From assembly GCA_963736005.1 (NCBI GenBank), contig CAVTNB010000001.1:1088001-1152000 (forward strand): a DNA stretch of 64,000 bases, written 5' to 3'. The position numbers and the translations under genes were made by a program. This stretch comes from an uncultured Pseudomonadota bacterium. Lineage in GTDB: Bacteria > Vulcanimicrobiota > Vulcanimicrobiia > Eremiobacterales > Eremiobacteraceae. Of the stretch, positions 53,433-53,732 are shown piece after piece. Position 1 is the stretch's first letter. Each line of letters begins with the position of its first letter. A model generated the notes under the pieces. The model made no database searches, had not been told where the DNA came from, and saw only the letters and a list, made by a program, of their open reading frames with translations.

Positions 53433-53732
53433 CACATTTGTCCAACATTCCTGTCGATGTGGCATCTATATCACTTGTACCTTGCGCGATCTCATCGCTG
53501 CGAGAGGGCTGGCGTGTTATGGCGGTCATAGATTTGATCGCTTCAGCGAGCGGCACGTCCATCTCGAGCTTGCGCTCTCAGTCGTTACAGGGTCAGCGCG
53601 ATCCATCGCCCGACTTCCCACGGTATTGTCCTCGTCTATTGAGTCGATTATGACGATCGGAGTTCACCGTTATTAGCCAGTACTTGCAATTGGTTGATCG
53701 ATATTTCTATCATCTCACCCCTCGATCGTTCG
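53433..53732 (-). ncRNA. Group I-like intron at L2500 (300 nt, no ORF, P7 3' strand degenerate)
   Basis: Splits GGCACCU^CGAUGUCGG; ends in G; IGS-like GGGUG; core blocks closely match the L2593 intron. Confidence 0.88.

What the first reader, a model, noticed from the sequence alone, without database searches (positions are those of the whole stretch)
53433..53732. L2500 intron lacks the guanosine-binding strand of P7: an apparently dead ribozyme in the peptidyl transferase centre, possibly spliced by its sibling
Seen: the L2593 intron reads GAUAUAG-UCU-AUGCCA while L2500 reads GAUAUAG---AUGCCA. The UCU that pairs with the conserved GAC (the G264-C311 pocket) is missing, J8/7 is also altered, and no alternative AGUC is present. 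Splice-site features (IGS-like GGGUG, terminal G), covarying P3 and P4-P7.2 are retained, and an ACAUCG complementary to the 3' exon start appears in P9. Established: the G-site is essential for self-splicing, and an unspliced insert at 2500 should inactivate the ribosome. Inference: helper-dependent splicing by the intact homologous intron 93 nt downstream, a non-canonical excision route, or a dead operon copy or assembly error.
Basis: partly seen in the sequence, partly recalled or inferred. Interest (0 to 1): 0.8.

Follow-up and report, generated by a model that had tools for sequence, protein, structure and literature searches.

The report
Scrambled rRNA intron, likely assembly chimera
A self-splicing intron in the only large-subunit rRNA gene of this soil-type bacterial genome is written without part of its catalytic core, but the stretch reads like a blend of two different introns and is most probably an assembly error, not a dead ribozyme kept alive by its neighbour.

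Summary
The 300-nt intron after U2500 of the 23S gene (minus strand, 53732..53433) lacks the UCU of the P7 3' strand that its sibling at L2593 has. But this is not a 3-nt deletion. A 27-nt stretch (53453-53479) replaces J8/7, the P7 3' strand, P9.0 and the P9 5' strand. It matches the 3' end of a third, paralogous intron (L2473, present in relatives) plus the first 10 nt of that intron's 3' exon. More L2473-type letters are scattered through the intron. All 36 other L2500 introns examined keep the canonical core. The intron lies at a breakpoint: the gene is like the sister genome G002 upstream and like another genus downstream. The 23S-5S spacer and the 5S gene are a block mosaic of the two. 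The assembly has frameshifts in rpoB and rpoC. As written, the intron has no fold signal (z -0.12, against -4.85 for G002's), yet the exons are pristine and this is the only operon. Best reading (about 0.6): a chimeric consensus of two intron layouts in an error-prone long-read assembly. No reads were available to prove it. A real, helper-dependent crippled intron remains possible (about 0.1-0.2).

The parts
52751..56798 (-). 23S rRNA gene, the only copy in the assembly, with introns at L1931, L2500 and L2593
   Evidence: Rfam RF02541 2521.8 bits. Single copy by search of the assembly and blastn of the whole operon. Sites numbered on E. coli rrlH.
53433..53732 (-). L2500 group I intron as written (300 nt): IA-like layout with P7.1/P7.2 between P7 and P3', core incomplete
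   Evidence: Exon anchors. Family consensus structure from 21 relatives, 35 of 56 predicted pairs with double-sided changes. No RF00028 hit at E<=10. MFE z-score -0.12.
53716..53721 (-). Internal guide GGGGUG pairing with exon CACCU (P1, U.G at the 5' splice site)
   Evidence: Sequence; conserved in all L2500 relatives.
53721..53732 (-). First 12 nt of the intron (CGAACGAUCGAG). Relatives have CAACAU(U/C)A(G), whose ACAUC pairs with the 3' exon (P10). The window's extra letters equal the L2473-type hairpin CGAGCGAUCGAG lying in the same register from the upstream exon.
   Evidence: Alignments: 6 of 6 window-specific deviations in the first 70 nt equal the L2473-type letter.
53579..53588 (-). 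J6/7 and P7 5' strand GUAACGACUG, intact, including the G of the guanosine-binding pair
   Evidence: Invariant in 21 of 21 aligned family members and present in the window.
53453..53479 (-). 27-nt foreign patch UACAAGUGAUAUAGAUG+CCACAUCGAC. It stands where J8/7, the P7 3' strand, P9.0 and the P9 5' strand should be. It matches P9 and the 3' splice site of L2473-type introns plus 10 nt of their 3' exon.
   Evidence: Local alignment to G007, G009 and G022 (29 of 33 columns by my count from that output). Three-way alignments. Coordinates.
53453..53462 (-). CCACAUCGAC inside the intron: a copy of 23S 2474-2483 as relatives have it.
   Evidence: Relatives' exon reads AAGAGUCCACAUCGAC; coordinates.
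53433..53452 (-). Last 20 nt, AGGAAUGUUGGACAAAUGUG: L2500-type P9 loop, P9 3' strand and terminal G
   Evidence: 17 of 20 letters shared with the L2500 introns of G004 and of G002 (my count from the sequences).
53756..53759 (-). Exon 2474-2477 reads CAAU where relatives read CCAC. These are the only unique exon letters in the gene, and they equal the first 4 nt of L2473 introns.
53340..53432 (-). 93-nt exon (23S 2501-2593) between the two introns
53053..53339 (-). L2593 group I intron, canonical core (P7 ACGACUG/UAGUCU, terminal G); 97.9% identical to that of G007 (another genus)
   Evidence: RF00028 27 bits. MFE z -3.64. Identity 281 of 287. A compensated change in the inner P7.2 hairpin relative to G007 (sequences).
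54304..54663 (-). L1931 group I intron (360 nt). Near-identical to G002's apart from two insertions that carry a short repeat dispersed through the genome.
   Evidence: RF00028 58 bits; boundaries and alignment; repeat copies.
52494..52612 (-). 5S rRNA, 119 nt, one letter longer than in relatives. The extra C gives GGGUCUGUUGGG, a blend of the two relatives' versions.
   Evidence: (118 nt in 5 of 5 relatives).

Best explanation
The stretch is a real L2500 group I intron site, but the written sequence is most likely not what any cell carries. It appears to be a chimeric consensus made by an error-prone long-read metagenome assembly. I infer that the assembler merged DNA with two different intron layouts. 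One layout has an intron at L2500, as in the sister genome G002. The other has a paralogous intron 27 nt upstream at L2473 plus one at L2593, as in G007-like genomes. Both layouts are anchored by the same exons. Laid on each other, the L2473 intron plus the 27-nt exon falls over the 27-nt exon plus the L2500 intron. The consensus then becomes a patchwork, worst at the two edges, and the J8/7-P7 3' strand segment is lost at the 3' edge. The true organism would carry intact, self-splicing introns. Shown here: the mosaic, the breakpoint, the assembly errors and the loss of fold signal. Inferred: that the mixing happened in the computer and not in the cell.
For: (1) The lesion is a replaced segment. 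53453-53479 aligns to the P9, 3' splice site and first 10 exon letters of L2473 introns of G007, G009 and G022 (29 of 33 columns). 36 of 36 other L2500 introns keep AUAGUC there. (2) More L2473-type letters lie in positional register. In the first 70 nt, 6 of 6 window-specific deviations equal the L2473-bearing rows. Two of these are the only unique exon letters in 2,904 23S columns. L2473-type strings also occur in the P6 3' half, in P7.2 and before P3'. Window-specific 10-mers found in L2473 rows number 19 of 209, against 0-5 for five control introns. (3) The intron sits at a breakpoint. Upstream of 2473 the gene follows G002 (98.8% over all columns). Downstream of 2593 it follows G007, G044 and G009 at 13 sites. 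L2593 is 97.9% identical to G007's. Both flanking protein genes are G002-like and syntenic. (4) The 23S 3' end, spacer, 5S and terminator alternate between G002-like and G007-like blocks, 31 runs. The spacer is longer (137 nt) than in G002 (132) and G007 (117). The 5S is 1 nt longer than in 5 of 5 relatives, with a blended string. (5) The assembly has errors in essential genes: rpoC is frameshifted at a run of 6 C, and rpoB lies in several frames. (6) As written, the intron folds no better than shuffles (z -0.12, 51 of 100 as good). G002's intron gives z -4.85 and the window's L2593 -3.64. Yet the exons are pristine and this is the only operon. (7) The variant was seen nowhere else: 0 of 10 metagenome loci, and no run holds it.
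Against: No reads could be laid on the place: depth was zero over 53444-53477 in all 4 runs, so two read populations were not seen. The available L2473 sequences explain only part of the window-specific letters. A jumping alignment improves from 50 to 45 edits. In one global alignment only 16 of 59 specific columns match an L2473 row, no better than the divergent control G005 with 14 of 58. The AUAGUC element is present in both putative parents, and a plain column vote would keep it. The first 2,470 nt of the 23S show no mixing. Natural exchange between paralogous introns does occur in this family: G009's L2473 and L2593 share an identical core of about 70 nt. P3, P4, P5 and P7.1 are intact, and only 4 of 52 consensus pairs are broken. 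No broken pair was found in the foreign 3' exon tract.
Confidence: 0.6

Rival explanations
1. The sequence is real. The lineage took up the L2593 intron and the 3' end of the operon from a G007-like donor. The left end of the converted tract fell into the misaligned pair L2473 (donor) and L2500 (recipient). That left a natural mosaic intron without J8/7 and the P7 3' strand. It is then removed by something other than its own core: the sibling L2593 or the L1931 ribozyme, a host protein, or nucleases with or without religation.
For: Co-conversion of flanking exons with an incoming intron is established for group I homing (recalled). The breakpoint pattern fits it. Paralogous introns of this family do exchange sequence (G009). 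P1, the terminal G, P3-P6 and the P7 5' strand are kept. An extra ACAUCG could hold the 3' exon. Degenerate group I introns that cannot self-splice yet are removed in vivo are described for lichen rDNA (PMC8527467, passages read).
Against: The whole RNA has lost its fold signal, not just P7. Window-specific changes in P2, P6, P7.2 and P8 are bulges and mismatches, not compensated pairs. At least ten block switches within about 350 nt of spacer and 5S, and lengths exceeding both parents, are odd for one recombination event. Intermediates would have been lethal in a one-operon genome. No sibling-assisted splicing of a core-less group I intron is known to me. Two full-text searches listed none, but they were not aimed at sibling or trans help, and only listings, one abstract and some passages were read.
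Confidence: 0.2
2. The sequence is real but the operon is a defective copy, and a working rRNA operon is missing from the 84%-complete assembly.
For: Completeness is 84% in 6 contigs. A relative (G022) has two operon copies.
Against: Only one operon was found. It lies mid-contig between genes syntenic with G002's operon flanks. Its exons have no unique change in 2,904 columns apart from the two letters at the L2473 site. The 16S, 23S and 5S score as full-length. The low completeness is explained at least in part by frameshift errors.
Confidence: 0.08
3. The intron still self-splices through a makeshift P7: CGACUG pairs with UAGAUG (C-G, G.U, A.A, C-G, U-A, G.U). A G.U pair stands in for the guanosine-binding G-C pair, and AAGUGAUA stands in for J8/7.
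For: The pairing can be written from the sequence. The G of the binding pair, which contacts guanosine through its Hoogsteen edge (recalled from work on the Tetrahymena ribozyme), is retained.
Against: Two adjacent non-Watson-Crick pairs lie in the heart of the site, and J8/7 is 3 nt longer. None of 36 relatives uses anything like it. There is no RF00028 hit and no fold signal.
Confidence: 0.04

Closest known systems
Intact L2500 group I introns of relatives (G002, G004, G044, G016, G005 and others; also in MAGs labelled Eremiobacteraeota, Gemmataceae and Patescibacteria)
   Same: Same insertion site, same guide GGGGUG, and the same P3-P8, P4-P6, P7.1 and P7.2 layout. 83.8% identity to G002's.
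   Different: They keep UGAAGAUAUAGUCU and a clean P9 (36 of 36). They score 27-33 bits with RF00028, and G002's folds with z -4.85.
L2473 introns of G007, G022, G009, G047, G004 and G035 (paralogs of the same family)
   Same: Source-like match for the 27-nt patch, the CAAU exon letters, the first 12 intron letters and parts of P6 and P7.2.
   Different: They sit 27 nt upstream, have their own guide for AAGAGU, and have an intact AUAGUC core.
Coxiella burnetii 23S rRNA introns (two group I introns flanking a 34-bp exon, one lacking the terminal G; Raghavan et al. 2007). Seen only as a title in the reference list of PMC11270868; the rest is recalled.
   Same: Two group I introns close together in a bacterial 23S gene, one with a non-canonical core or terminal feature.
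   Different: Those introns were reported to self-splice. The deviation there is the terminal nucleotide, not the loss of J8/7 and the P7 strand.
Simkania negevensis unspliced L1931 intron (Everett et al. 1999). Title seen in the reference list of PMC11270868; the rest is recalled.
   Same: Precedent for a group I intron retained in mature bacterial 23S rRNA.
   Different: Different site (1931, not the peptidyl transferase loop). Nothing here shows retention.
Degenerate group I introns of lichen-fungus rDNA (PMC8527467; abstract and passages read)
   Same: Group I introns in rRNA genes that cannot self-splice yet are removed in vivo.
   Different: Eukaryotic nuclear rDNA in many copies, with a host machinery proposed. 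No bacterial case, and no evidence of removal here.

Membership tests
Group I intron (Rfam RF00028), IA-like with P7.1/P7.2 | P1 formed by an internal guide with a U.G pair at the 5' splice site | tested here: met
   Exon CACCU pairs with GGGGUG (53716-53721).
Group I intron (Rfam RF00028), IA-like with P7.1/P7.2 | Terminal G at the 3' splice site | tested here: met
   The intron ends ..AUGUG before CGAUGU.
Group I intron (Rfam RF00028), IA-like with P7.1/P7.2 | P3-P8 and P4-P6 domains supported by covariation in the family | tested here: met
   In the family consensus, 35 of 56 pairs have double-sided changes. In the window's intron 4 of 52 consensus pairs are broken, with extra bulges in P2, P6, P7.2 and P8.
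Group I intron (Rfam RF00028), IA-like with P7.1/P7.2 | P7 helix with the guanosine-binding G-C pair (3' strand UAGUC) | tested here: not met
   No AUAGUC in the last 70 nt, against 36 of 36 relatives. Only CUG/UAG plus a non-canonical extension can pair.
Group I intron (Rfam RF00028), IA-like with P7.1/P7.2 | Conserved J8/7 (family: UGAAGAUA) | tested here: not met
   The window has UACAAGUGAUA. TG(A/G)AG(A/G)TATAGTCT is invariant in 21 of 21 aligned relatives.
Group I intron (Rfam RF00028), IA-like with P7.1/P7.2 | Covariance-model score | tested here: not met
   No hit at E<=10. Intact L2500 relatives score 27.0-32.9 bits, themselves below the gathering score of 50.
Group I intron (Rfam RF00028), IA-like with P7.1/P7.2 | Self-splicing with guanosine | not testable with these tools
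   Needs an in vitro assay or RNA data. No RNA run holds the organism.
23S intervening sequence excised by RNase III without religation | Long stem pairing the two ends of the insert | tested here: inconclusive
   The minimum-energy fold with 30-nt flanks shows no helix joining the two intron ends, and it is no better than shuffles. A fold prediction alone cannot exclude such a helix.
Unspliced, tolerated rRNA intron (Simkania type) | Intron present in mature rRNA of working ribosomes | not testable with these tools
   No RNA data for this organism.

The most novel reading that the evidence does not exclude
The sequence is real. The sole 23S rRNA gene of a free-living soil bacterium carries, in the peptidyl transferase loop, a group I intron that lost J8/7 and the guanosine-binding strand of P7 through exchange with a paralogous intron. 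It must therefore be excised with outside help, from the intact sibling ribozyme 93 nt downstream or from a host factor. That would be the first bacterial helper-dependent group I intron.
Probability: 0.12. Interest if true: 0.85.

Novelty: not a real feature. Interest (0 to 1): 0.2.

Why it matters
If it were real, an essential rRNA would depend on removal of a core-less group I intron. That would open a testable case of one ribozyme rescuing another, or of a bacterial host splicing factor. As the evidence stands, the value is cautionary. rRNA operons of long-read metagenome assemblies can carry blended introns when related organisms or copies differ in intron layout, and such blends imitate 'dead ribozymes'. 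A real by-product is a family of uncultured soil-type bacteria whose 23S genes hold up to four ORF-less group I introns (L1931, L2473, L2500, L2593). Three of them are paralogs with patchy distribution and signs of exchange. The introduction of PMC11270868 calls bacterial rRNA introns limited to a few species outside the CPR.

Tried and rejected
Read check. The look-up of sequencing runs found no run with more than 0.29 of the words. Laying X1-X4 gave zero depth over 53444-53477 and only pieces from relatives. The exon-exon joints seen there also occur in DNA runs, so they come from intron-less organisms. This gives no verdict on the sequence or on splicing.

Independent occurrence. The metagenome scan with a 20-nt L2500 motif returned 10 loci. 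The 8 with both exon anchors all had intact introns.

Tests of the two-parent idea. The global-alignment column test (16 of 59 against 14 of 58 in a control) and the any-template match test did not discriminate. The jumping alignment gave only 50 to 45 edits. The k-mer test, the edge alignments and the tail mosaic did discriminate.

GATC/TCGA enrichment as a sign of drift in place. The genome is rich in these words. But the intron's counts (6 and 7) sit between or equal those of the two putative parents (3/3 and 4/7), so the test is uninformative.

Frameshift signs inside the window. A Pfam scan of overlapping ORFs showed nothing clear. rpoB and rpoC elsewhere in the genome did.

Broken covariation in the foreign 3' exon tract: none found.

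Earlier notes of this scan held nothing. The paper search on chimeric rRNA operons in MAGs was seen as a listing only and is not used as evidence.

Full report
What is there. The window carries one rRNA operon on the minus strand: 23S 52751-56798, 16S 57259-58786, 5S 52494-52612. The 23S gene is 4,048 nt against a 2,925-position model. Aligned to E. coli rrlH, the large inserts are group I introns. They sit after U1931 (54663..54304, 360 nt; RF00028 58 bits), after U2500 (53732..53433, 300 nt) and after U2593 (53339..53053, 287 nt; RF00028 27 bits). There are also smaller expansions near 272-303 and 1405. It is the only rRNA operon in the 2.84-Mb, 6-contig, 84%-complete assembly.

The observation. 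After GAUAUAG, the L2593 intron continues UCUAUGCCAUCAGG and the L2500 intron continues AUGCCACAUCGACAGG. The guide GGGGUG, the terminal G, P3, P4, P5, P7.1 and the P7 5' strand GUAACGACUG are present. I collected homologous L2500 introns from three sources. Eight came from related genomes. One more came from G044. Twenty-seven came from the 134 loci fetched by two pattern scans, namely those with both exon anchors. All 36 (32 distinct sequences) have AUAGUC in their last 70 nt; the window's intron does not. In a 21-sequence alignment of L2500, L2593 and L2473 introns, the block TG(A/G)AG(A/G)TATAGTCT never varies. RNAalifold on that alignment recovers P2, P3, P4, P5, P6, the outer P7.2 stem, P8, P9 and P9.0, and 35 of 56 pairs show double-sided changes. 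P7.1 and P7.2 lie between P7 and P3', the IA-type layout. RF00028 gives 27.0-32.9 bits to the intact L2500 introns of 5 of 5 relatives. It gives nothing at E<=10 to the window's.

The lesion is a replacement, not a 3-nt deletion. Relatives G004, G007, G009, G022, G035 and G047 have a third, paralogous intron after U2473. It ends ..CUACAAGUGAUUGUAGAUUG and is followed by exon CCACAUCGAC. The window's intron reads GGUACAAGUGAUAUAGAUG+CCACAUCGAC at 53453-53481. This aligns with that L2473 end plus exon in 29 of 33 columns. It therefore stands where J8/7, the P7 3' strand, P9.0 and the P9 5' strand should be. The 'GAUAUAG' that looked like the S element corresponds to the P9 3' strand of the other intron. 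The last 20 nt are L2500-type again (17 of 20 shared with G004 and with G002).

More L2473-type letters occur elsewhere. In the first 70 nt from the upstream exon, all 6 window-specific deviations equal the letter of L2473-bearing sequences laid in the same register. They include exon 2474-2477 reading CAAU (the first letters of L2473 introns) instead of CCAC. These are the only unique exon letters of this genome in 2,904 aligned 23S columns. L2473-type strings also occur in the 3' half of P6, in P7.2 and before P3'. Window-specific 10-mers shared with L2473 rows number 19 of 209, against 0-5 in five controls.

The intron lies at a breakpoint. Over all 23S columns the window is 98.8% identical to G002 (same genus) and 92.6% to G007. 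At sites where G002 and G007 differ, the window follows G002 almost throughout up to 2473. Beyond 2593 it follows G007, G044 and G009 at 13 sites. Its L2593 intron is 97.9% identical to G007's but 82-83% to those of G004 and G009. G002 has no L2593 intron. Protein genes on both sides of the operon are G002-like and syntenic (90% and 94% identity), so the contig itself is not a join of two genomes. From the 23S 3' end through the spacer, the 5S and the terminator, the window alternates between G002-like and G007-like blocks, 31 runs. The spacer (137 nt) is longer than in G002 (132) and G007 (117). The 5S is one letter longer than in 5 of 5 relatives, at a place where the two types differ by an offsetting insertion and deletion.

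Quality of the assembly and of the written RNA. rpoC is split by a frameshift at a run of six C, where the reading frame needs seven. rpoB lies in at least four frame pieces. This is the signature of uncorrected long-read errors, and a likely reason for the 84% completeness. With 30-nt flanks, the written L2500 intron folds to -111.5 kcal/mol, no better than shuffles (z -0.12; 51 of 100 as good). G002's intron gives z -4.85 and the window's L2593 z -3.64, each with 0 of 100 shuffles as good. The window-specific changes in P2, P6, P7.2 and P8 are bulges and mismatches. Differences among the natural relatives, and between the window's and G007's L2593, are compensated.

Reading. A cell with one rRNA operon cannot live with a 300-nt insert in the peptidyl transferase loop unless the insert is removed. 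The written intron has neither the P7 3' strand nor J8/7 nor an overall fold signal. The exons around it are flawless. Blended, over-long sequence continues through the spacer and the 5S. The simplest account is a chimeric consensus. Reads, operon copies or graph edges with the layout L2473/-/L2593 were merged with the organism's own -/L2500 layout in an error-prone long-read assembly. I put this at about 0.6.

Several things count against this account. I could not see reads. Known L2473 sequences explain only part of the odd letters. Both parents have AUAGUC, so a simple vote would keep it. The first 2.4 kb of the gene is unmixed. Natural exchange between these paralogs exists: G009 has an identical core of about 70 nt in its L2473 and L2593 introns.

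Rivals. A real recombinant, perhaps created when L2593 and its flanks were taken up from a G007-like donor, would need an outside route of excision (about 0.2). The sibling-helper idea is one form of this, and nothing tested here speaks for it. A defective extra operon is unlikely, given pristine exons, synteny and a single copy (about 0.08). A makeshift P7 (CGACUG/UAGAUG with G.U and A.A) can be drawn but is unsupported (about 0.04).

What is known. The closest relatives are the intact L2500 and L2473 introns described above. I saw the following literature. Bacterial rRNA group I introns are called rare outside the CPR, where they cluster around the peptidyl transferase centre and include L2593 (PMC11270868, passages). 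Coxiella's paired 23S introns and Simkania's unspliced L1931 intron I saw only as titles in that paper's reference list. Lichen rDNA holds degenerate group I introns that cannot self-splice yet are removed in vivo (PMC8527467, abstract and passages). Neither full-text search listed a helper-dependent bacterial group I intron lacking its G-site strand. Both were keyword searches not aimed at helper-assisted splicing, and for the other papers I read listings only.

Verdict. The lesion is larger than described. The most probable cause is an assembly chimera. Interest is low unless reads show the sequence is real.

Noticed in passing
Loci L007, L009, L011, L012/L020, L016, L159 (relatives G004, G009, G007, G022, G035, G047): A third paralogous ORF-less group I intron sits after U2473 of 23S (H89 loop). 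The three paralogs L2473, L2500 and L2593 are patchily distributed among genomes of one family. Only G004 has all three, and L2473 and L2500 co-occur only there.
   Followed up: partly
L009 (G009), the L2473 and L2593 introns: The two introns of one gene share an identical stretch of about 70 nt (P6 through P7.1), unlike other L2473 introns. This suggests gene conversion between paralogous introns.
   Followed up: no
Loci L029, L040, L043, L044, L077, L081, L105, L121, L122, L131, L132, L141: 12 of 36 other L2500 introns, mostly from Patescibacteria-labelled MAGs plus one Gemmataceae-labelled MAG, end in A rather than G directly before CGAUGUCGG. The exon sequence allows no other boundary. They would lack the canonical terminal G.
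   Followed up: no
window about 54482-54515 and 55216-55247 (inside the L1931 intron and the expansion near 23S 1405); more than 50 copies genome-wide: A dispersed palindromic repeat of about 30 nt (core GCGCGAAUnnAUUCGCGC) is inserted in peripheral parts of the L1931 intron. It accounts for two insertions relative to G002's otherwise near-identical intron.
   Followed up: partly
G000:C1:490058-497152 (outside the window): rpoC is frameshifted at a run of six C, and rpoB is broken into several frames. These are assembly indel errors in essential genes. G044 and G047 show similar broken matches.
   Followed up: partly
window 52494-53052 (23S 3' end, spacer, 5S, terminator): Block mosaic of G002-like and G007-like sequence. 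The 5S is one letter longer than in 5 of 5 relatives.
   Followed up: yes
whole genome: Strong word bias: GATC O/E 1.75, TCGA 2.17, CGATCG 3.7, GCGATCGC 5.6, CTAG 0.22.
   Followed up: partly
window 53403-53432 and relatives' exon 2475-2483: Exon ACAUCGA (H89 tip in relatives) is complementary to exon UCGAUGU (2500-2506). The P10 guide of L2500 introns (ACAUC) mimics that exon segment.
   Followed up: no
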